Below are positions 5,324-31,218 of a stretch of 64,000 bases of DNA, in pieces. This stretch comes from Clostridia bacterium (GTDB lineage Bacteria; Bacillota; Clostridia; TANB77; CAG-465), in assembly GCA_045652705.1 (NCBI GenBank), contig JAZRUV010000029.1, forward strand, positions 15,389-79,388. The letters run 5' to 3'. Numbering within the stretch: the stretch's first letter is position 1; each line of letters opens with the position of its first letter. The position numbers were made by a program, and so were the translations under genes. The notes beneath the pieces are model-generated. The model had not been told where the DNA came from. It did no database searches and saw only the letters and a program-made list of their open reading frames with translations.

Positions 5324-5665
5324 ATGAAAAAAGAAGGAATGAGCTTAATAACACTAGTAATTACAGTTGTAGTCTTAATAATTATTACCGGTGTTACAAT
5401 TATAGGTATAGAGAATACAGGAATAATAGATAAGGCTGAAATGGTTGTAGAGGACATGAACTTAAAAAATTTGGAGCAACTAGCCAATATGTCTTATGCT
5501 AATATTTATTTGGAAAACCTATCTAAAGGCATAAGGAGAGAAATTACAGGTGAAGAGGTAAAAGAACGTATGCTAAAAGATGGGGTTAAAGAGGAAGCTT
5601 TAAGTAAATATGATATAATAGTAGAAAATGGGGATGTATTTGTTAAAGTCAAGGAGGAAGAATGA
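5324..5665 (+). CDS. Small secreted or anchored protein with a pilin-like N-terminus (G-MSLITLVITVVVLIII...NTGIIDKAEMVVED)
   Basis: 113 aa; short basic N-terminus, Gly, then a roughly 22-aa hydrophobic stretch; the N-terminal 45 aa are paralogous to those of the 47634-49040 protein. Confidence 0.5.
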   Translation: MKKEGMSLITLVITVVVLIIITGVTIIGIENTGIIDKAEMVVEDMNLKNLEQLANMSYANIYLENLSKGIRREITGEEVKERMLKDGVKEEALSKYDIIVENGDVFVKVKEEE

Positions 5666-6321
5666 AAGTAGCAATAATTGGAGCAATGGATAAAGAAATA
5701 GAAAGATATTTGGAATTATATAATCCAGAACTTGTAGATGATAAGAGAAAAATATATGTTAAAGATAATGTTGTTATTGCAGGAAGTGGAATTGGAAAAG
5801 TAAATTCTTCTATGATGACTCAACATTTAATAGATAAATATAATGTGGATGTAATAATTAGCTCAGGCTGTGCGGGAAGTTTAACAAATGATTTAAAAGT
5901 GCTTGATGTTATAATTCCATCATATGTTACTTATCATGATTTTTTACCGGAAAGAGTTATGAGATATAGTGTACCAGACGAAGGAAATATAACTGTAGAT
6001 GCAAGGTTAAGGGAACTATTTAAAGAGACCATAGAAGATATGGAAAATGTACATTATGTGGAGACTCCAATATGTAGTGGGGACTGTTATGTAACAGATA
6101 GTGGAACTGCTAAAAAGATAGTAGAAAGAACAGGTGCTACAGTAGTAGATATGGAAAGTGCATCTATTGCACACGTGAGCCGAAAAAACAATATACCATT
6201 TATAACAATAAGGACAATTTCAGATTTTGCTGATGGAAATGATAACATGGAAAAACAAGCAGCAGATGTATCATCAGAAATAATATATAAATGTGTAGAA
6301 AAAATATTAACAAACAGTTGA
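5662..6321 (+). CDS. mtnN: 5'-methylthioadenosine/S-adenosylhomocysteine nucleosidase
   Basis: MKVAIIGAMDKEI...GIGKVNSSMMTQHLIDKYNVDVIISSGCAGSL is the MtnN/Pfs signature. Confidence 0.85.
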   Translation: MKVAIIGAMDKEIERYLELYNPELVDDKRKIYVKDNVVIAGSGIGKVNSSMMTQHLIDKYNVDVIISSGCAGSLTNDLKVLDVIIPSYVTYHDFLPERVMRYSVPDEGNITVDARLRELFKETIEDMENVHYVETPICSGDCYVTDSGTAKKIVERTGATVVDMESASIAHVSRKNNIPFITIRTISDFADGNDNMEKQAADVSSEIIYKCVEKILTNS

Positions 6322-10342: not shown

Positions 10343-11170
10343 ATGGAAAACAGTATTAAATTATTTGAAGACAAAAGAGTAAGAGCAGCGTGGAATGAAG
10401 ACGAGGAGAAATGGTATTTCTCTGTAATTGACATTGTTGGAGCATTAACAGATAGTGATTATCAACAAGCAAGAAATTACTGGAAATGGCTAAAAAACAA
10501 ATTAAATGAAGAGGGAAGTGAATTGGTTAGTAATACTAACCAGTTGAAAATGGAGGCTAGTGACGGAAAAATGAGATTAACAGATGTAGCAGATGTTGAA
10601 CAAATATTTAGACTTATACAGTCTATTCCTTCTAAGAAGGCAGAACCTTTTAAATTATGGCTAGCTAAAGTTGGAAAAGAAAGAATAGATGAAACTTATG
10701 ACCCTGAAATTGCTATAAATAGAGCCTTAGCAACTTATAGAAGAAAAGGTTATTCCGAATCATGGATTAACCAAAGATTAAAATCTATAGAAGTGCGCAA
10801 AGACTTTACAGATGAACTACAAAGAGTCGGAATTAACAAAAGTAAAGATTTTGCCATATTAACAAATACCTTAACACAAGTTTGGAGTGGACATACTGTA
10901 AAAGAATATAAAAATATAAAGGGACTAAAGAAAGAAAACTTAAGAGACAATATGACAAATACAGAACTAGTATTCAATATGCTCGCTGAAATTTCTTCTA
11001 CGGAAATATCAAAGTGCAAAGATAAACACGGATTTGAGGAAGCAGAGGATTCTGTTATTACAGGTGGTGGTATAGCTAAAAATGCAAGAGAACAATTAGA
11101 AAGAGTTACTGGAAAGAAAGTAATAACAGATGAAAAGCCTAAAAGAAAAGTAAAAGAATTAAGTGAATAG
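10343..11170 (+). CDS. Bro-N domain protein (phage antirepressor / DinD-like family paralog)
   Basis: N-terminal FEDKRVRAAWNEDEEKWYFSVIDIVGAL is Bro-N-like; C-terminal GGGIAKNAREQLERVTGKK resembles the DinD C-terminus; RBS aggaagggg. Confidence 0.6.
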   Translation: MENSIKLFEDKRVRAAWNEDEEKWYFSVIDIVGALTDSDYQQARNYWKWLKNKLNEEGSELVSNTNQLKMEASDGKMRLTDVADVEQIFRLIQSIPSKKAEPFKLWLAKVGKERIDETYDPEIAINRALATYRRKGYSESWINQRLKSIEVRKDFTDELQRVGINKSKDFAILTNTLTQVWSGHTVKEYKNIKGLKKENLRDNMTNTELVFNMLAEISSTEISKCKDKHGFEEAEDSVITGGGIAKNAREQLERVTGKKVITDEKPKRKVKELSE

Positions 11171-11222
11171 ACCATTTTGTTGACTTTAGCAAAATGGTTA
11201 AAGCTAGTGTATTACTAGTATA
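11171..11222 (+). pseudogene. Short out-of-frame remnant of a dinD-like gene (reads IDHFVDFSKMVKASVLLV*) directly after the stop of the Bro-N gene
   Basis: Encodes the DinD DHFV-x3-KMV motif; carries the accattttg/caaaatggt inverted repeat. Confidence 0.4.
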
Positions 11223-11236
11223 GAAGGGGTGGATTT

Positions 11237-12199
11237 ATGGAAGATGATAATATAATAGTTCAAAATGAAACATCAAGTAAAGATATTAAAAGCTTAATTT
11301 ATACAGTAAGAGGAAAGCAAGTGATGTTAGATAAGGATGTTGCAATGTTGTATGATTACCCTACTAAAAGAATAAATGAAACTGTAAGTAGAAACAAGCA
11401 AAGATTTCCTCAAAATTTTTGTTTCCAATTAACTACTGAAGAATATGAAGTTTTGCTAAACAAAAATTTAAATTCAAATAATGATAAAATACAAAAGATA
11501 GTAGTAAAGAATTCTTTAAGGTCGCAAATTGCGACCTTAAACGAAGAAACAAAAAGAGGTAAACATAGAAAATACTTGCCATACGTTTTTACAGAACAGG
11601 GTATAGCAATGCTATCTGGATTATTAAAAAATGATATAGCAATTCAAGTTAGCATAAATATAATGAATACATTTGTAGAAATGCGCAAGTTTTTAATGCT
11701 TAATGGACAAGTCTTTGAAAGACTAACTAGCATAGAATATAAATTATTAGACTATGATAAAAAGTTTGATAAGGTTTTTGACCAATTGCAACTTGAAGAA
11801 AATATTAAGCAAAGAATATTTTTCGACGGCCAAATTTATGATGCATATAGTCTTGTTCTAGATATTATAAAGAAAGCCAATAAAGAAATTTTAATTATAG
11901 ATAATTATATTGATGATAGTGTTTTAAAGATGCTTGCGAAAAAGAAAAACAATGTATTGGTAACTATTTTGACATCACTTAAAAGCAATATTCAAAACTT
12001 GGATGTTCAAAAATTCAATTTAGAGTATCCGGCTATAAAAATTTTAAAGACAAATAAATTTCATGATAGATTTATAGTAATTGACAGTAAAGAAATGTAC
12101 CACTTAGGAGCATCTATAAAAGATCTAGGTAAGAAATGCTTTGGAATTAATAAAATAGAAGATATAGAAATTATACAAAAGATTATCAGCATTAAATAA
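11237..12199 (+). CDS. ORF6N-domain protein (phage KilA-N/antirepressor-associated DNA-binding family)
   Basis: VRGKQVMLDKDVAMLYDYPTKRINETVSRNKQRFPQNFCFQLTTEEYE is an ORF6N signature; RBS gaagggg. Confidence 0.6.
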   Translation: MEDDNIIVQNETSSKDIKSLIYTVRGKQVMLDKDVAMLYDYPTKRINETVSRNKQRFPQNFCFQLTTEEYEVLLNKNLNSNNDKIQKIVVKNSLRSQIATLNEETKRGKHRKYLPYVFTEQGIAMLSGLLKNDIAIQVSINIMNTFVEMRKFLMLNGQVFERLTSIEYKLLDYDKKFDKVFDQLQLEENIKQRIFFDGQIYDAYSLVLDIIKKANKEILIIDNYIDDSVLKMLAKKKNNVLVTILTSLKSNIQNLDVQKFNLEYPAIKILKTNKFHDRFIVIDSKEMYHLGASIKDLGKKCFGINKIEDIEIIQKIISIK

Positions 12200-12255
12200 C
12201 TATAAAATCTTGACAGTTAACGGCTTGTGTTACGCGATAGTGACGTGTATAACAG

Positions 12256-12368
12256 GGGGTGGAATAGCAAAAAATATCAGAGAACAGTTAGAAAGAGTTA
12301 TTGGAAAGAAAGTAATAACTGAAGAAAAGCCAAAATGAAATGTAAAAGAGCTAAACAAGTAATTTTAT
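12256..12368 (+). pseudogene. Duplicated, 5'-truncated copy of the 3' end of the Bro-N gene (about 85% identical to 11065-11170) with a premature TGA
   Basis: Direct alignment to 11065-11185: GGIAKNIREQLERVIGKKVITEEKPK*NVKELNK*; followed again by the tagaccattttgtt junction. Confidence 0.55.
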
Positions 12369-12479
12369 AGACCATTTTGTTCAAATGGATAAAATGCTCA
12401 AAGGCTTGATAGAAGTGAAGCAGAGGGGAAGTAGTATAAACAATAAACATTAATTAACTTTCAAAAGGAGGAATATATA

Positions 12480-13298
12480 ATGAAAGTGTTAAAGGATGGA
12501 AAGTATAAAAATTTTGAAGATATAAAAAACATAAGGGAAGATGGAACTGAGTTTTGGTATGGTAGAGATTTAGCAAAAGTATTGCAATATGTAGAATGGA
12601 GAAATTTTGTTAAAGTAATTAATAAGGCGAAAAGCGCTTGTGAAAATAGTAGAAGAAATATATTAGACCATTTTGTTGAGGTCAACAAAATGGTCCGAAT
12701 AGGCAGTAATACTGAAAGAGAACTGTTAGACTATGGACTTTCTAGATATGCTTGTTATCTTATTGTGCAAAATGGAGACCCTAAGAAAGAAGTAATTGCC
12801 CTTGCACAAACATACTTTGCAATTCAAACCAGAAAACAAGAAATTAGTGAGAAAGAATACAGTTTGTTAACTGAAGATGAAAAAAGATTATATAATAGAA
12901 ATTTAACAAGAAAAGGTAACTATTCTCTTAATCAAACTGCTAAAAATGCAGGAGTTAAAAATTTTGATAAATTTCATAATGCTGGTTACAAAGGATTGTA
13001 TAATGGAGAAACTGCAGATGATATTGCTAAAAGAAAAGGCTTGAGATATAGAGAAGATATATTAGATAATATGGGAAGTGATGAGCTAATAGTAAATCTG
13101 TTTAGAATATCTCAAACAGAACAAAGTTTAAAAAGGGAGAATGTAAAAACTGAAAACAAAGCAAATAGTACTCATTATAACATTGGAAAGAACATTAGAG
13201 AAGTAATTGCTAAAAATGGTGGAACAATGCCTGAAGATTTGCCAACACCAAAAAAGAGTTTAAAAGAATTGGAAAAAGAGAGTAAATTAGTTAAATAA
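12480..13298 (+). CDS. dinD: DNA-damage-inducible protein D homolog (DinD family, Bro-N domain)
   Basis: FWYGRDLAKVLQYVEWRNFVKVINKAKSACE...DHFVEVNKMVRIGS...LSRYACYLIVQNGDPKK...AQTYFAIQTRKQE is collinear with E. coli DinD. Confidence 0.75.
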   Translation: MKVLKDGKYKNFEDIKNIREDGTEFWYGRDLAKVLQYVEWRNFVKVINKAKSACENSRRNILDHFVEVNKMVRIGSNTERELLDYGLSRYACYLIVQNGDPKKEVIALAQTYFAIQTRKQEISEKEYSLLTEDEKRLYNRNLTRKGNYSLNQTAKNAGVKNFDKFHNAGYKGLYNGETADDIAKRKGLRYREDILDNMGSDELIVNLFRISQTEQSLKRENVKTENKANSTHYNIGKNIREVIAKNGGTMPEDLPTPKKSLKELEKESKLVK

Positions 13299-13353
13299 AA
13301 ACGGATTTTGTTTTGACTGGTATCATTTTTAAAAGAAATAAAATATGAAAATC

Positions 13354-13382
13354 TTGACTTTTAGCGCTATATATACTATAAT
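13354..13382 (+). promoter_or_regulatory. Promoter of ncRNA unit 1: -35 TTGACT (13354-13359), 17 nt, -10 TATAAT (13377-13382)
   Basis: Consensus sigma-A elements; the same aaaatcttgac context is found at unit 2. Confidence 0.6.
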
Positions 13383-13388
13383 AATTAA

Positions 13389-13866
13389 CGTAAAAAGATT
13401 TTGTTGGTACTTATTATGTATCAAGTTGGTATTAGAGCTAAGATTGTGTGGCCACCCACATTTGAAACTACTATCGTCCAGACCGGATGTGAGGGCTCTT
13501 CGTGGGATACAGTGAACCTGGACAGGTTTATTTAGCCTCTACTGCGGGGGACCGTGCGTAGCTAGCTATGCTGATTCTATCGTGAGCAACCATGCATAGT
13601 AAGGCAGTTAGGCAATCTAGCTTTGATATAATTTTACTGAGATATCGGGCGCTTTAGCGATATCAAGGTAGTGATGGTAGATAACGTGGGAAGTTATCAT
13701 ACCAGCGGGGAAGACTTTGCAAAGCTGTACTATATGAAAATCATTTCCGGAAGTGGTTTTCACGAATAACGTATAGCTCCTCATGGCAATAGGAATTCCC
13801 AGTTCCTAGCCGATAGTCTATAAAGCAGGAAATGAGCACCACCAAAACCGAGTGGTGCCTTTTTCT
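13389..13866 (+). ncRNA. Large structured ncRNA, tandem unit 1 (about 480 nt; family not identified)
   Basis: Own promoter and intrinsic terminator (gcaccacc/ggtggtgc plus T-tract, 13836-13866). The GC-rich 5' domain 13447-13612 is enclosed by a long-range helix (13419-13446 with 13613-13628). The conserved 3' domain 13613-13830 is near-identical to unit 2. No ORF. Confidence 0.6.
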
Positions 13867-13917
13867 ATACAAAATACGCTAAAAGACTGTCAATGAAACA
13901 AGAAAAATTTTAAAATC

Positions 13918-13946
13918 TTGACATTTTACGGTTTGAGTTGTATAAT
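13918..13946 (+). promoter_or_regulatory. Promoter of ncRNA unit 2: -35 TTGACA (13918-13923), 17 nt, -10 TATAAT (13941-13946)
   Basis: Consensus elements read directly from the sequence. Confidence 0.6.
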
Positions 13947-13952
13947 AATTAA

Positions 13953-14483
13953 TGTAAAAATATTTTGCTGATACTAATTATGTATCAAGATAATTGTTAT
14001 TAGAGCTAAAGGTTGTGTGGCCCCTGAACGGAAGCGACTTGAACCGGAGTGCACGCTAGTTCAGACTGCAACAAGTAGGGATTAGTGATTCTTGCTGCAA
14101 GAATCTTTAGGCTTTTATTTCGTTAAGACGTTATAGAGTCTATAATGCCGCTGCTGCGTGGGAACGTACGTATCACGGTTTTGTGTCTAGCGAATGACAG
14201 TGTGTCTAGAGACAGGTCTGTGAGCAATCTAGCTTTGATATAACTTTACTGAGATATCGGACGCTTTAGCGATATCAAGGTAGTGATGGTAGATAACGTG
14301 GGAAGTTATCATAACCAGCGGGGAAGACTTTGCAAAGCTGTACTATATGAAAATCATTTCCGGAAGTGGTTTTCACGAATAACGTATAGCTCCTCGTGGC
14401 AATAGGAATTCCCAGTTCCTAGCCGATAGTCTATAAAGCAGAATTGAGCACCGCCGTCCGTAATCGAGCGGTGCCTTTTCTTA
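13953..14483 (+). ncRNA. Large structured ncRNA, tandem unit 2 (about 530 nt)
   Basis: Same architecture as unit 1: conserved 5' leader (tatgtatcaag...tagagctaaag), a unit-specific GC-rich insert of about 200 nt (14017-14224), a conserved 3' domain, and terminator gcaccgc...gcggtgc plus T-tract (14448-14483). Confidence 0.6.
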
Positions 14484-14509
14484 TTTAAAACACATATGCT
14501 GTTAAAGAC

Positions 14510-14538
14510 TTGACATAATTACATTGATAGTGTATAAT
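14510..14538 (+). promoter_or_regulatory. Promoter of ncRNA unit 3: -35 TTGACA (14510-14515), 17 nt, -10 TATAAT (14533-14538)
   Basis: Consensus elements read directly from the sequence. Confidence 0.6.
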
Positions 14539-14544
14539 GTATCT

Positions 14545-14913
14545 ACGCTTAAACATTAGTTGATACTAACTATGTATCAAATGTATGTTAAAGCTAAAGT
14601 TGTTAGACGTCGACCCCTGGCGGGCCAGCCGTGACTAACGGTTTCCGAGCGTCTCTTCCGTGGGCAACCGGGCGTAGATGTGAACTTGAATAAAGTTTAC
14701 ATACAACTTAGCTTTGATATAAACCTGGTTCGAAAGTTTGGCCAGATGAGTAAAACCAGTCGGGGGAGACGGCAAAGTTGTACTATGTTAAATTCTAGCT
14801 AGCGAGAATTTTTACGAATAACGTACAACCCCTCATGGAAGTTATAGCTGAATATTCGGCTCAATGTTCCAAATGTCTATAAAGCAGAAAAGGTTCCATC
14901 AGTAAGCTGATGG
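14545..14913 (+). ncRNA. Large structured ncRNA, tandem unit 3 (about 370 nt, diverged member)
   Basis: Keeps the family motifs (tatgtatcaa, aaagctaaag, agctttgatataa, ggcaaagttgtactatg, ttacgaataacgtaca, gtctataaagcag). Two helices are maintained by compensatory changes relative to units 1 and 2. Terminator ccatcag/ctgatgg plus T-tract ends near 14913. Confidence 0.55.
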
Positions 14914-14990
14914 GGCCGTTTTCTATTCATCAGAATGTTGAAAATTATCGTAAATTGTGTTAAACTATATATCACGTTAAGGAGAAAAAC

Positions 14991-16394
14991 ATGGTATTTA
15001 GTAGCGCAATTTTTTTGTTTGGTTTTTTACCACTTTTGTTAGGGTTGTATTTCCTTGCAAAAGATAAATTTAGAAATTATATATTACTAGCATTTAGCTT
15101 AATATTTTATGGTTTTGGTGGACCAAAACTTTTAGTAATGATGATTGCAGTAGTAATTATAGACTATATTGCGGCAATATTATTAGACAAATATACAAGT
15201 AATAAAATTAGAAAACTTGTAATTATACTTACAGTAGGTTTAAACATTGGAACGCTATTTTATTTTAAATATATGGGATTTACAGTAAGTGTTATAAACA
15301 GGCTTGCAAGTTTAAATATTCCAGTACCGGAAATAGTTTTGCCAATTGGAATATCTTTTTATACATTCCAAGCAATGAGCTATGTTATAGATGTGTATAG
15401 AAAAGAAGTTAAAGCACAGAAAAATCTGTTTAATGTACTACTTTATGTAAGTATGTTTCCACAACTTGTTGCAGGACCAATTGTTAGATATAAAACTGTA
15501 GCAGAAGAAATAGAAAAACGTAAAGTTACATTAGCTACATTTACTTTAGGTTTAGAAAGATTTATATTTGGACTTGCTAAAAAGTTAATTATAGCAAACA
15601 ATACGGGAAAGTTAGCTGATGTAATATTTGAAGCGGAGACCATAGCAACGCCGCTTGCTTGGCTTGGTGCCGTAGCTTATGCATTACAAATCTATTTTGA
15701 TTTTTCTGCATATTCAGACATGGCAATAGGTTTGGGAAGAATGTTTGGATTTAATTTTGAAGAAAACTTTAATTACCCATACATTTCCAAAACTGTTACA
15801 GAGTTTTGGAGAAGATGGCATATATCTTTATCTACGTGGTTTAGAGATTATGTGTATATTCCGCTTGGAGGAAATAGAAAAGGCATAAAACGTCAAATAC
15901 TTAATCTATTGATAGTATGGAGTCTAACAGGTATTTGGCATGGGGCAGCTGCAAACTTCCTTTTATGGGGATTATATTATTTTGCATTCCTAATGTTAGA
16001 AAAACTAGTACTAAAGAAATGGTTAGACAAGCTACCAAATTTTGTAGGACATATATATACATTATTTGTAGTTTTAATTGGCTGGGTGTTATTTAGAGCT
16101 GAAGGACTTACACAGTGTGGTCGTATGCTTAAAGCACTATTTGTGCCACAAATGACTACAGTTGCTATGCAACAACTAGGAATATATCTAGAAAGTTATG
16201 GAGTATATCTAGGACTTGGGATATTACTATCCATACCAGTATTCCCTAAAGTTAAAGATTGGATACAAACAAAATTTAAACAAAGCACAGTTGTAAATGT
16301 GGTGTATTATATGTTTGTTCTAGGAATATTTGCGTTAGGTATTATCTTCTTGTCGCAGGCTACGTATAATCCATTTATATACTTTAGGTTTTAG
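14991..16394 (+). CDS. MBOAT-family membrane-bound O-acyltransferase (AlgI/DltB-like)
   Basis: 467 aa, multi-TM; FRDYVYIPLGGNR...W..TGIWHGA conserved His region of MBOAT. Confidence 0.85.
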   Translation: MVFSSAIFLFGFLPLLLGLYFLAKDKFRNYILLAFSLIFYGFGGPKLLVMMIAVVIIDYIAAILLDKYTSNKIRKLVIILTVGLNIGTLFYFKYMGFTVSVINRLASLNIPVPEIVLPIGISFYTFQAMSYVIDVYRKEVKAQKNLFNVLLYVSMFPQLVAGPIVRYKTVAEEIEKRKVTLATFTLGLERFIFGLAKKLIIANNTGKLADVIFEAETIATPLAWLGAVAYALQIYFDFSAYSDMAIGLGRMFGFNFEENFNYPYISKTVTEFWRRWHISLSTWFRDYVYIPLGGNRKGIKRQILNLLIVWSLTGIWHGAAANFLLWGLYYFAFLMLEKLVLKKWLDKLPNFVGHIYTLFVVLIGWVLFRAEGLTQCGRMLKALFVPQMTTVAMQQLGIYLESYGVYLGLGILLSIPVFPKVKDWIQTKFKQSTVVNVVYYMFVLGIFALGIIFLSQATYNPFIYFRF

Positions 16395-31131: not shown

Positions 31132-31218
31132 GTCGGAATGGTGGAATTGGCAGACGCGTCAGACTCAAAATCTGATATGGGTAACCATGTGTGGGTTCAA
31201 GTCCCACTTCCGGCACCA
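31132..31218 (+). tRNA. tRNA-Leu (anticodon CAA), class II with long variable arm, CCA encoded
   Basis: Cloverleaf: acceptor gtcggaa/ttccggc, D-arm GGTGGAATTGGCAGAC, anticodon loop CTCAAAA, T-arm gtgggTTCAAGTcccac; close to Bacillus tRNA-Leu sequences. Confidence 0.9.

What the first reader, a model, noticed from the sequence alone, without database searches (positions are those of the whole stretch)
13724..14829. Compensatory base changes support conserved helices in the ncRNA family
In units 1 and 2 the segment GCTGTAC (13724-13730) pairs with GTATAGC (13771-13777) around the hairpin gaaaatcatttccggaagtggttttc. In unit 3 the homologous strands are GTTGTAC (14777-14783) and GTACAAC (14823-14829). 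Position 2 of the outer helix changes from C-G to T-A and position 4 from G.U to G-C, so pairing is kept. The internal hairpin is replaced by a different sequence with the same fold (aaattct-agctagcg-agaattt). The closing helix is likewise kept: in unit 1 the strands tatcaa...agagctaagattg pair with caatctagctttgata, and in unit 3 tatcaa...aaagctaag pair with cttagctttgata, which differ in sequence. Covariation within one genome is direct evidence for selection on RNA structure.
Basis: seen in the sequence. Interest (0 to 1): 0.7.

Follow-up and report, generated by a model that had tools for sequence, protein, structure and literature searches.

The report
Tandem genes for uncatalogued structured RNA
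Three neighbouring genes in an uncultured ruminant-gut Clostridia bacterium encode related, elaborately folded RNAs of about 380-530 bases that match no catalogued RNA family.

Summary
The quoted strands sit at the quoted coordinates and pair as described. Window 13340-14935 holds three independent transcription units, each with a consensus sigma-70 promoter and an intrinsic terminator, and GC of 40-55% against a 25-30% background.

I collected 21 distinct homologous units from syntenic loci in ruminant-gut Clostridia. The inner hairpin (P2) and the distal closing helix also covary.

One detail is revised. The tatcaa/ttgata pairing is better explained by a covarying 5' hairpin plus a different register of the closing helix.

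The fold is:
- a 5' hairpin with an invariant 7-nt loop;
- a roughly 20-bp clamp around a swappable GC-rich insert;
- a 3' core with two crossing helices (candidate pseudoknot).

Frequent G.U pairs fix the RNA strand as +. Nothing matched in Rfam 15 (4227 families), phage, plasmid or viral collections, or the literature.

It is best read as a new family of trans-acting structured RNAs built from a conserved scaffold and a variable module. Function is inferred only.

The parts
13354..13382 (+). Unit 1 promoter (TTGACT-17-TATAAT)
   Evidence: Consensus scan, 11/12 matches. A promoter-like site was found at the same position in every other complete unit.
13389..13866 (+). Unit 1 RNA, about 478 nt. 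Ends are inferred from the promoter and terminator.
   Evidence: MFE -157.7 kcal/mol, z = -4.0, 0 of 100 shuffles as stable. GC 0.42-0.53 against about 0.27 in the flanks.
13404..13424 (+). Unit 1 5' hairpin: UUGGUAC, loop UUAUUAU, GUAUCAA
   Evidence: Helix 93.9% paired, 4 of 7 pairs with two-sided changes. Loop consensus UNAYUAU.
13429..13446 (+). Unit 1 closing helix, 5' strand (GUAUUAGAGCU + AAGAUUG)
   Evidence: It is the best duplex with the Z block in all 21 units. The distal part covaries.
13447..13612 (+). Unit 1 variable GC-rich insert. Contains GNRA-capped hairpins and GCUAGC at 13561-13566.
   Evidence: It does not align with the unit 2 or unit 3 inserts, although the flanks are 98-99% identical.
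13613..13629 (+). Unit 1 closing helix, 3' strand (CAAUCU + AGCUUUGAUAU). Includes the near-invariant Z block GCUUUGAUAUAA.
13703..13831 (+). Unit 1 conserved 3' core. Helix a: 13707-13711 with 13778-13782. Helix b: 13712-13715 with 13816-13819. P3: 13785-13811. Tail: AUAAAGCAG.
   Evidence: CM R1 hit of 130.1 bits. Pair counts.
13724..13777 (+).
13834..13866 (+). Unit 1 intrinsic terminator
   Evidence: stem 13840-13857 followed by a U run.
13918..13946 (+). Unit 2 promoter (TTGACA-17-TATAAT, 12/12)
13953..14480 (+). Unit 2 RNA, about 528 nt. Core at 14316-14444. P1 at 14337-14343 with 14384-14390. Terminator at about 14446-14480.
   Evidence: CM R1 hit of 128.6 bits..
14510..14538 (+). Unit 3 promoter (TTGACA-17-TATAAT, 12/12)
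14545..14925 (+). Unit 3 RNA, about 381 nt
   Evidence: MFE -122.4 kcal/mol, z = -4.8, 0 of 100 shuffles as stable. RNAalifold consensus with 6 relatives.
14560..14580 (+). Unit 3 5' hairpin: UUGAUAC, loop UAACUAU, GUAUCAA
14584..14603 (+). Unit 3 closing helix, 5' strand (UAUGUUAAAGCU, bulged A, AAGUUGU). Pairs with 14693-14711.
14693..14711 (+). Unit 3 closing helix, 3' strand (ACAACUU + AGCUUUGAUAUA)
14758..14890 (+). Unit 3 conserved 3' core
   Evidence: CM R1 hit of 121.2 bits.
14777..14829 (+). Unit 3 P1 (14777-14783 with 14823-14829), enclosing P2 (14790-14811, loop AGCUAGCG)
14892..14925 (+). Unit 3 intrinsic terminator (11-bp stem plus U run)

Best explanation
Window 13340-14935 holds three paralogous genes for a previously uncatalogued family of structured non-coding RNAs of about 380-530 nt.

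Shown:
- Each gene has its own consensus sigma-70 promoter and its own intrinsic terminator.
- The + strand RNA folds into a 5' hairpin with an invariant 7-nt loop (UNAYUAU).
- A roughly 20-bp closing helix ends in the near-invariant block GCUUUGAUAUAA. It clamps a GC-rich insert of about 90-210 nt that differs between paralogs.
- A conserved 3' core follows. Helix a (GGGGN/NCCUC) and helix b (AGAC/GUCU) cross each other (candidate pseudoknot).

Inferred:
- The RNAs act in trans as stable folded scaffolds.
- The conserved core binds a common partner. This could be a protein or another copy of the RNA, for example through the conserved palindromic GCUAGC loop of P2.
- The swappable insert gives each paralog its own specificity.

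The genes sit in a strain-variable hot spot between rplS and an MBOAT/AlgX operon. They are lineage-specific additions to that site.
For: Transcription units:
- Three promoter and terminator pairs.
- GC rises to 0.40-0.55 from 0.25-0.30.
- Promoters and terminators are conserved in all units of 12 loci.
- The RNAs fold better than shuffles, z = -4.0 and -4.8.

Structure:
- 3' core, alignment A4: 93.9% of cells paired against 33-51% for slid partners, and 19 of 26 pairs with two-sided changes.
- MAFFT-only alignment A2: 94.6% paired against 33-49%.
- Helix a: position 9/78 reads GC 10, AU 7, UA 2, GU 1.
- 5' hairpin and closing helix: 90.3% paired against 34-44%.
- RNAalifold predicts the same helices without my input.

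Strand:
- G.U pairs dominate several columns: 18 of 21 at a2, 19 of 21 at closing-helix columns 53/105, and 10 of 21 at 51/107.
- These would be A.C mismatches on the other strand, and the minus strand folds no better than shuffles.

Modular insert:
- Units 1 and 2 are 98-99% identical in both flanks but have unalignable inserts.
- Inserts, cores and terminators are reassorted between genomes.

Trans-acting rather than cis-acting:
- A separate promoter-like site (TTGAAA-17-TAAACT with an extended TG) lies between the last terminator and the MBOAT gene.
- The sister clade has rplS and MBOAT directly adjacent, with no unit between them.
- That clade keeps a reduced homolog elsewhere, in the AlgX-SodC gap.

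Not a known family:
- No Rfam 15 hit for any unit type, even at E <= 5 to 10.
- No phage, plasmid or IMG/VR match.
- No hit in the literature.
Against: - There are no expression data. Transcript ends are inferred from consensus motifs only.
- Homologs come from a narrow clade, and many units are close relatives or recombinants. Cell counts therefore overstate the number of independent events.
- A4 was fitted to my structure.
- Helix b, and hence the pseudoknot, is almost invariant. It rests on a single compensatory case (AGGC/GCCU in L034) that needs a 1-nt realignment.
- P1 has uncompensated mismatches in L016a and L019a.
- No partner protein was identified, and no gene co-occurs strictly with the RNA.
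- The scaffold-plus-module mechanism is inference from anatomy alone.
Confidence: 0.6

Rival explanations
1. The units are classical base-pairing regulatory sRNAs present as multicopy paralogs. Exposed conserved loops or the variable insert act as seeds against mRNAs.
For: - They are independent promoter and terminator units arranged as tandem paralogs.
- The reduced sister-clade homolog carries an unstructured C/U-rich insert with the anti-Shine-Dalgarno-like sequences CACCUCCUUUCU and UCUCCUCC.
- The tail before the terminator is A-rich and conserved.
Against: - At 380-530 nt, with a pseudoknotted core and many invariant unpaired bases, the RNAs are far more elaborate than known sRNAs.
- The inserts of the window units are themselves highly structured.
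- No extended complementarity to the rest of the 64-kb window was found.
Confidence: 0.15
2. The RNA self-assembles into an RNA-only homo- or hetero-oligomer, as ROOL, GOLLD and OLE do. Loop-loop contacts such as the GCUAGC palindrome in P2 would hold the copies together.
For: - A 6-nt palindrome in an 8-nt loop is conserved in all non-A, non-B units, including the divergent L007b, L017a, L031 and L034, while the stem below it covaries.
- The inserts carry GNRA tetraloop hairpins.
- ROOL, GOLLD and OLE form homo-oligomers (PMC12286853).
Against: - Type A and type B units lack the palindromic loop. Their P2 is a plain long hairpin.
- The sister-clade homolog has no P2 at all.
Confidence: 0.12
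3. The last unit, or the whole array, is a cis-acting leader of the downstream MBOAT/AlgX operon. It would be a riboswitch-like or T-box-like attenuator whose terminator controls read-through.
For: In this clade a unit with a strong terminator always lies directly upstream of the MBOAT gene, on the same strand.
Against: - Each unit has its own consensus promoter.
- A further promoter-like site lies between the last terminator and the MBOAT gene.
- Terminator types are swapped between unit types without matching changes in the core.
- Sister clades have MBOAT with no unit.
- The reduced homolog lies downstream of AlgX, not upstream of MBOAT.
- No T-box or riboswitch model matches.
Confidence: 0.05
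4. The RNA is a component of a mobile or defence element, for example a guide, an antitoxin or a decoy. It would work with the variable neighbouring genes (Bro-N and ORF6N DinD-like proteins, PemK/MazF-like toxin).
For: - The slot between rplS and the units holds strain-variable accessory genes.
- Type A units occur only where Bro-N or ORF6N genes are present.
- Some inserts copy rRNA segments.
Against: - Units occur without any such gene (L031, L007, L034).
- There is no integrase, reverse transcriptase, Cas, IscB or TnpB gene nearby.
- There are no phage, plasmid or IMG/VR homologs.
Confidence: 0.08

Closest known systems
ROOL and GOLLD RNAs (large ornate bacterial ncRNAs; Rfam; PMC5737381, PMC12286853)
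   Same: - Several hundred nucleotides long, GC-rich relative to an AT-rich genome, with many covarying helices and a stand-alone gene.
- Function unknown.
- ROOL was also first seen in rumen metagenomes.
- Palindromic or loop-loop elements are compatible with oligomerisation.
   Different: - There is no covariance-model match even at E <= 10.
- The RNA is not in prophages or next to tRNA clusters. The nearest tRNA is 16 kb away.
- The units are arranged as 1-3 tandem paralogs with a swappable insert.
- The taxonomic range is much narrower.
OLE and raiA motif RNAs
   Same: Large, highly structured, independently expressed RNAs of anaerobic Firmicutes whose biochemical role is unresolved.
   Different: - No Rfam match.
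- No oapA-like or raiA gene association.
- OLE and raiA are single-copy and broadly distributed. This family is multicopy and restricted to one clade.
Multicopy sRNA families encoded in tandem (for example LhrC1-5 of Listeria, Qrr1-5 of Vibrio; from my own knowledge)
   Same: Tandem paralogous genes, each with its own promoter and terminator.
   Different: Those RNAs are about 100 nt long, simple in structure, and act through short C/U-rich seeds. Here the RNA is 4-5 times longer, with a pseudoknotted conserved core.
rRNA processing stems, or scaffolded insert RNAs clamped by a long helix formed from flanking sequence
   Same: A roughly 20-bp helix formed by sequences flanking a structured insert could be an RNase III substrate.
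   Different: No rRNA or tRNA model matches the insert, and processing was not tested.

Membership tests
ROOL (Rfam) | Match to the family covariance model at or near its gathering score | tested here: not met
   No hit at gathering score or at E <= 10 for any unit type.
ROOL / GOLLD | Prophage context, frequently next to tRNA genes | tested here: not met
   The context is a chromosomal ffh-rpsP-rimM-trmD-rplS operon. The only tRNA is at 31132. No phage or IMG/VR homologs were found.
OLE / raiA / other Rfam large ncRNAs | Covariance-model match | tested here: not met
T-box leader or riboswitch (cis-regulatory leader) | Lies in the 5' UTR of the regulated gene, with a terminator that has a conserved alternative pairing to the sensor. 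Matches a model. | tested here: not met
   The units have their own promoters, and an extra promoter-like site lies before the MBOAT gene. Terminators are interchangeable between unit types. The MBOAT gene occurs without the RNA. No model matches.
Group II intron (including circularly permuted forms, PMC8637638) | Domain V hairpin with the catalytic triad, and D1-D4 models | tested here: not met
   No Rfam intron model hit. The 5' hairpin is a 7-bp stem with a 7-nt AU loop, not a D5-like hairpin.
Type III toxin-antitoxin RNA antitoxin | Short (about 30-45 nt) tandem repeats next to a ToxN/AbiQ-like toxin gene | tested here: not met
   The units are 380-530 nt long and have their own promoters. 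No toxin gene is adjacent in the window.
Structured ncRNA gene (generic) | Promoter and terminator, strand-specific covariation, no conserved ORF | tested here: met
   Only short, non-conserved ORFs overlap the units.
Structured ncRNA gene (generic) | Detectable stable transcript | not testable with these tools

The most novel reading that the evidence does not exclude
The family is a 'display scaffold'. A conserved pseudoknotted core and clamp helix present interchangeable inserts, and some of those inserts copy ribosomal RNA.

- Type B inserts carry the exact 16-nt 23S segment AGUAGCGGCGAGCGAA (E. coli nt 241-256).
- The sister-clade homolog carries CACCUCCUUUCU, the 3' anti-Shine-Dalgarno end of Firmicute 16S rRNA (identified from memory, not tested).

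The RNAs would then act as decoys or sponges for ribosome-directed factors. Examples are MazF/PemK-like RNases, one of which is encoded next to the RNA gene in L008, rRNA-modifying enzymes, ribosomal proteins, or Shine-Dalgarno sequences.
Probability: 0.1. Interest if true: 0.85.

Novelty: new member of a known kind. Interest (0 to 1): 0.6.

Why it matters
Large bacterial RNAs with complex conserved folds are rare. Those characterised so far have turned out to be ribozymes, RNP scaffolds, RNA guides (HEARO) or self-assembling cages (ROOL, GOLLD).

This family adds a new, well-supported example with an unusual design. It has tandem paralogs, a clamp helix holding a swappable domain, a candidate pseudoknot core, and inserts that in some members copy rRNA.

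It gives a defined target for structure probing, cryo-EM and partner identification.

Its narrow host range, in uncultured ruminant-gut Clostridia, limits its immediate reach.

Tried and rejected
Searches that found nothing:
- Rfam at gathering score on the whole window, and at E <= 5-10 on all unit types. Only the tRNA-Leu and chance hits came back.
- blastn 'distant' against phages and plasmids: no match.
- IMG/VR pattern scans. The three hits of the last scan were unrelated, for example a CRESS-like Rep contig. None matched the CM.
- Literature search for the invariant blocks and for rumen ncRNA surveys: nothing relevant.

Searches with limited yield:
- Genome contigs pattern scan: 13 hits, of which only L003, L007 and L008 are true homologs.
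- Metagenome pattern scan: the one hit was a chance match inside a Ser/Thr kinase gene.
- Both patterns demanded exact conserved blocks, so divergent relatives were missed. The L045 homolog, found only by the CM, shows this.

Ideas tested and dropped:
- Association with MBOAT. Homologs with <= 78% identity sit in other contexts without the RNA.
- General rRNA mimicry by the inserts. Against E. coli rRNA, only the 16-mer of type B inserts exceeds the shuffle background: 7 real hits against 4-10 in shuffles.
- Target complementarity elsewhere in the window. Only chance-level matches were found.

Ideas considered and rejected by inspection:
- Protein-coding small ORFs.
- tRNA or tmRNA.
- Retron, omega-RNA or bridge RNA, because no partner genes are present.
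- DNA-level repeats, because the G.U pairs are strand-specific.
Full report
**1. The observation**

Reading window 13000-15600 confirms every string and coordinate in the finding.
- Unit 1 has GCTGTAC at 13724-13730 and GTATAGC at 13771-13777. Unit 2 has the same strands at 14337-14343 and 14384-14390.
- Unit 3 has GTTGTAC at 14777-14783 and GTACAAC at 14823-14829.
- Each strand pair forms seven base pairs. Position 2 goes from C-G to U-A, and position 4 from G.U to G-C.
- The enclosed hairpin differs in sequence between the units: 13736-13761 against 14790-14811.

- Unit 1: z = -4.3, with 0 of 200 shuffles as stable.
- Unit 3: z = -2.0, with 8 of 200.
- The opposite strand is no better than shuffles (z = -0.9 and -1.3).

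There is one slip. Unit 3 reads aaagctaaag, so the closing helix there has a bulged A.

Units 1 and 2 are 98-100% identical across this region. The window therefore offers only two independent sequences and three substitutions in the helix. That is suggestive, with a chance probability of about 0.03 by my crude count, but not decisive.

**2. What is in the window**

The region 13340-14935 is three tandem, independent transcription units.
- Each has a consensus sigma-70 promoter (TTGACT or TTGACA, 17 nt, TATAAT; 11-12 of 12 matches) and a stem plus U-run terminator.
- GC rises to 0.40-0.55 from a 0.25-0.30 background.
- The predicted RNAs are about 478, 528 and 381 nt.
- Units 1 and 3 were folded whole. 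Both fold much better than shuffles: z = -4.0 and -4.8, with 0 of 100 shuffles as stable.
- Only short, non-conserved ORFs overlap the units.

The gene context is chromosomal.
- Upstream are ffh, rimM, trmD and rplS, then three Bro-N or ORF6N (DinD-like) genes at 10343-13298.
- Downstream are an MBOAT acyltransferase, an AlgX-like protein, Cu/Zn SOD, RsmD-like and FtsK genes.

**3. Homologs**

Several searches found nothing.
- Rfam 15 gives no match for any unit, at gathering score or at E <= 10.
- blastn against phages and plasmids finds nothing, and neither do pattern scans of IMG/VR.

An exact-pattern scan of 185,579 species genomes returned 13 stretches. Three are real homologs, all 'Clostridia bacterium' MAGs (L003, L007, L008). 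The metagenome pattern scan gave only a chance hit in a kinase gene.

Looking up contigs that encode the identical RplS, and contigs that encode MBOAT homologs, was more productive.
- It gave syntenic loci from ruminant gastrointestinal metagenomes.
- Each locus holds 1-3 units between rplS (plus strain-variable accessory genes) and MBOAT.
- In all there are 21 distinct units.

MBOAT homologs at <= 78% identity sit in other contexts and lack the RNA.

A sister clade (TrmD 76% identical) has rplS and MBOAT directly adjacent, which is an empty site. The covariance model nevertheless finds a reduced homolog in its AlgX-SodC gap (29.7 bits, E about 1e-4 to 1e-6). That homolog has the same promoter, 5' hairpin, clamp helix, core (without P2), tail and terminator.

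The family is therefore lineage-restricted, can move between sites, and is somewhat wider than the exact-pattern scans suggested.

**4. Structure and covariation**

I built a covariance model (R1) from a MAFFT alignment of the 3' core (A2) and realigned all 21 cores to it (A4).

On A4:
- 93.9% of 537 cells pair, against 33-51% when the 3' partners are slid by 1-3 columns.
- 19 of 26 pairs have two-sided changes.
- 0 of 500 shuffles reach any observed measure.

For example, position 4 reads AU 8, GC 5, GU 4, UA 3.

Because A4 was fitted to the structure, I repeated the count on the MAFFT-only alignment.
- Overall 94.6% of cells pair, against 33-49% for slid partners.
- P1 is 89% paired, with 5 of 7 pairs covarying.

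RNAalifold independently predicts helix a, P1, P2 and P3.

New elements found:
- Helix a (GGGGN with NCCUC, 5 bp) covaries clearly. Its last pair reads GC 10, AU 7, UA 2, GU 1.
- Helix b (AGAC with GUCU) crosses helix a, which would make a pseudoknot.
- Helix b is nearly invariant. It is supported by only one compensatory case (AGGC/GCCU in L034, after a 1-nt shift), so the pseudoknot is a candidate, not a result.

For the 5' half I aligned the 5' segment spliced to the Z block (A5).
- The 5' hairpin is 93.9% paired with 4 of 7 pairs covarying, and its 7-nt loop UNAYUAU is conserved.
- The closing helix UAUGUUAAAGCU/AGCUUUGAUAUA plus its distal extension is about 90% paired, with 9 pairs covarying.
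- RNAduplex finds this same duplex as the optimum in all 21 units.
It fails where the hairpin covaries, in L007b and L034. I therefore prefer the hairpin model.

Many columns are dominated by G.U pairs. This fixes the functional strand as + and rules out a DNA-level palindrome.

**5. Anatomy and modularity**

The order of elements is: 5' hairpin, clamp helix enclosing a variable insert, type-specific hairpins, conserved core, tail GUCUAUAAAGCAG, terminator.

- Units 1 and 2 share 98-99% identical flanks but have unalignable inserts.
- Across genomes, inserts, cores and terminators are reassorted.
- The inserts are GC-rich and structured, with GNRA-capped hairpins.
- In loci outside the window, 'type B' inserts contain a 16-nt exact copy of E. 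coli 23S rRNA nt 241-256. This is the only rRNA similarity above the shuffle background.
- The sister-clade homolog has an unstructured C/U-rich insert containing CACCUCCUUUCU. From my own knowledge this matches the 3' end of Firmicute 16S rRNA.
- The P2 loop carries the palindrome GCUAGC in all units other than types A and B, while its stem covaries.

**6. Mechanism**

Shown: these are independently transcribed units, and the + strand is under selection to fold into a complex, partly pseudoknotted structure.

Inferred: the RNAs act in trans. The conserved core would be a common binding or assembly platform, and the clamped insert a paralog-specific module. I put about 0.9 on 'real structured RNA gene family' and about 0.3-0.4 on this particular mode of action. 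The stated confidence of 0.6 is a blend of the two.

Rivals:
- **Classical base-pairing sRNA.** Possible, especially for the sister-clade form.
- **RNA-only oligomer like ROOL or GOLLD.** The GCUAGC loop fits, but it is missing from types A and B and from the sister homolog.
- **Cis-leader of MBOAT.** Disfavoured by the units' own promoters, the interchangeable terminators and the presence of MBOAT without the RNA.
- **Component of a mobile or defence module with the Bro-N, ORF6N or PemK genes.** Units occur without these genes.

**7. Comparison with known families and novelty**

The closest known things are the large 'ornate' bacterial RNAs: ROOL, GOLLD, OLE and raiA. They resemble this family in size, complexity and unknown function. 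Membership in each fails the covariance-model test, and the context test where one applies.

The family appears undescribed. There is no Rfam family, and there was no hit in 8 million full texts for its invariant blocks. I file it as a new family within the known kind 'large structured bacterial ncRNA'. I do not call it categorically new, because its function is unknown.

**8. Verdict**

The feature is a real and apparently new RNA family of moderate to high interest, limited by its narrow host range and the lack of functional evidence.

Noticed in passing
window 10343-13298: Three tandem paralogous genes for Bro-N (275 aa), ORF6N (320 aa) and Bro-N (272 aa) proteins with DinD-like C-termini lie between rplS and the RNA array. 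Their number and type differ in every related locus (0-3 genes), so the slot is a strain-variable hot spot. Type A RNA units occur only where such genes are present.
   Followed up: partly
L045 11813-12198 (also L046 11130-11515): The sister clade has rplS and MBOAT directly adjacent (empty site). It carries a reduced homolog of the RNA in the AlgX-SodC gap. P1 closes a 5-nt loop, so there is no P2. The insert is unstructured and C/U-rich, and contains CACCUCCUUUCU (anti-Shine-Dalgarno-like) and UCUCCUCC.
   Followed up: partly
L015 14052-14067, L019 6883-6898; one mismatch in L007 about 5626-5641 and L034 about 180-195: The variable inserts of 'type B' units contain AGUAGCGGCGAGCGAA. This is identical to E. 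coli 23S rRNA nt 241-256, a bulged-G/S-turn hairpin. It is the only rRNA similarity above the shuffle background.
   Followed up: partly
L008 4231-4990: A PemK/MazF-like toxin gene (Pfam E = 4e-16) with no obvious antitoxin gene lies between rplS and the RNA gene. It is followed by a promoter-like site and three copies of CATTGTAATCC, each with a hairpin. This could be a separate small repeat RNA.
   Followed up: partly
window 14797-14804 (unit 3 P2 loop) and 13561-13566 (unit 1 insert); same loop in L003, L007b, L008, L017a, L031, L034, L040: The 6-nt palindrome GCUAGC sits in an 8-nt loop and is conserved while the stem beneath it covaries. A copy also lies in the unit 1 insert. It may be a kissing-loop element.
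   Followed up: partly
window 13834-13866 and 14892-14925; L015 14760-14800: There are two terminator types (GAGCACCACC...GGUGCC and GGUUCCAUCAG...CUGAUGGGGCC). They are exchanged between unit types in different genomes, which indicates recombination among the tandem units.
   Followed up: no
window 14938-14966: A promoter-like site (TTGAAA-17-TAAACT with an extended TG) lies between the last RNA terminator and the MBOAT start codon. It is conserved in related loci and implies that MBOAT is transcribed independently of the RNA units.
   Followed up: partly
window 5750-5776: A 27-nt stretch inside a PNP_UDP_1 gene is 89% identical to the closing-helix 5' strand of unit 3 (E = 0.019). This is probably chance in AT-rich sequence.
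   Followed up: no
L015 20072-20342: A bAvd (DGR accessory variability determinant) gene lies about 5 kb downstream of the array in one related locus. I did not examine it for a diversity-generating retroelement.
   Followed up: no
L017 4253-4714: This divergent unit has a normal 5' hairpin, clamp helix and insert. Its 3' core is largely replaced: it keeps only CAGCGGGAUAAGUC and a different hairpin (CM 18.7 bits). It may be a degenerating or alternative-core variant.
   Followed up: no
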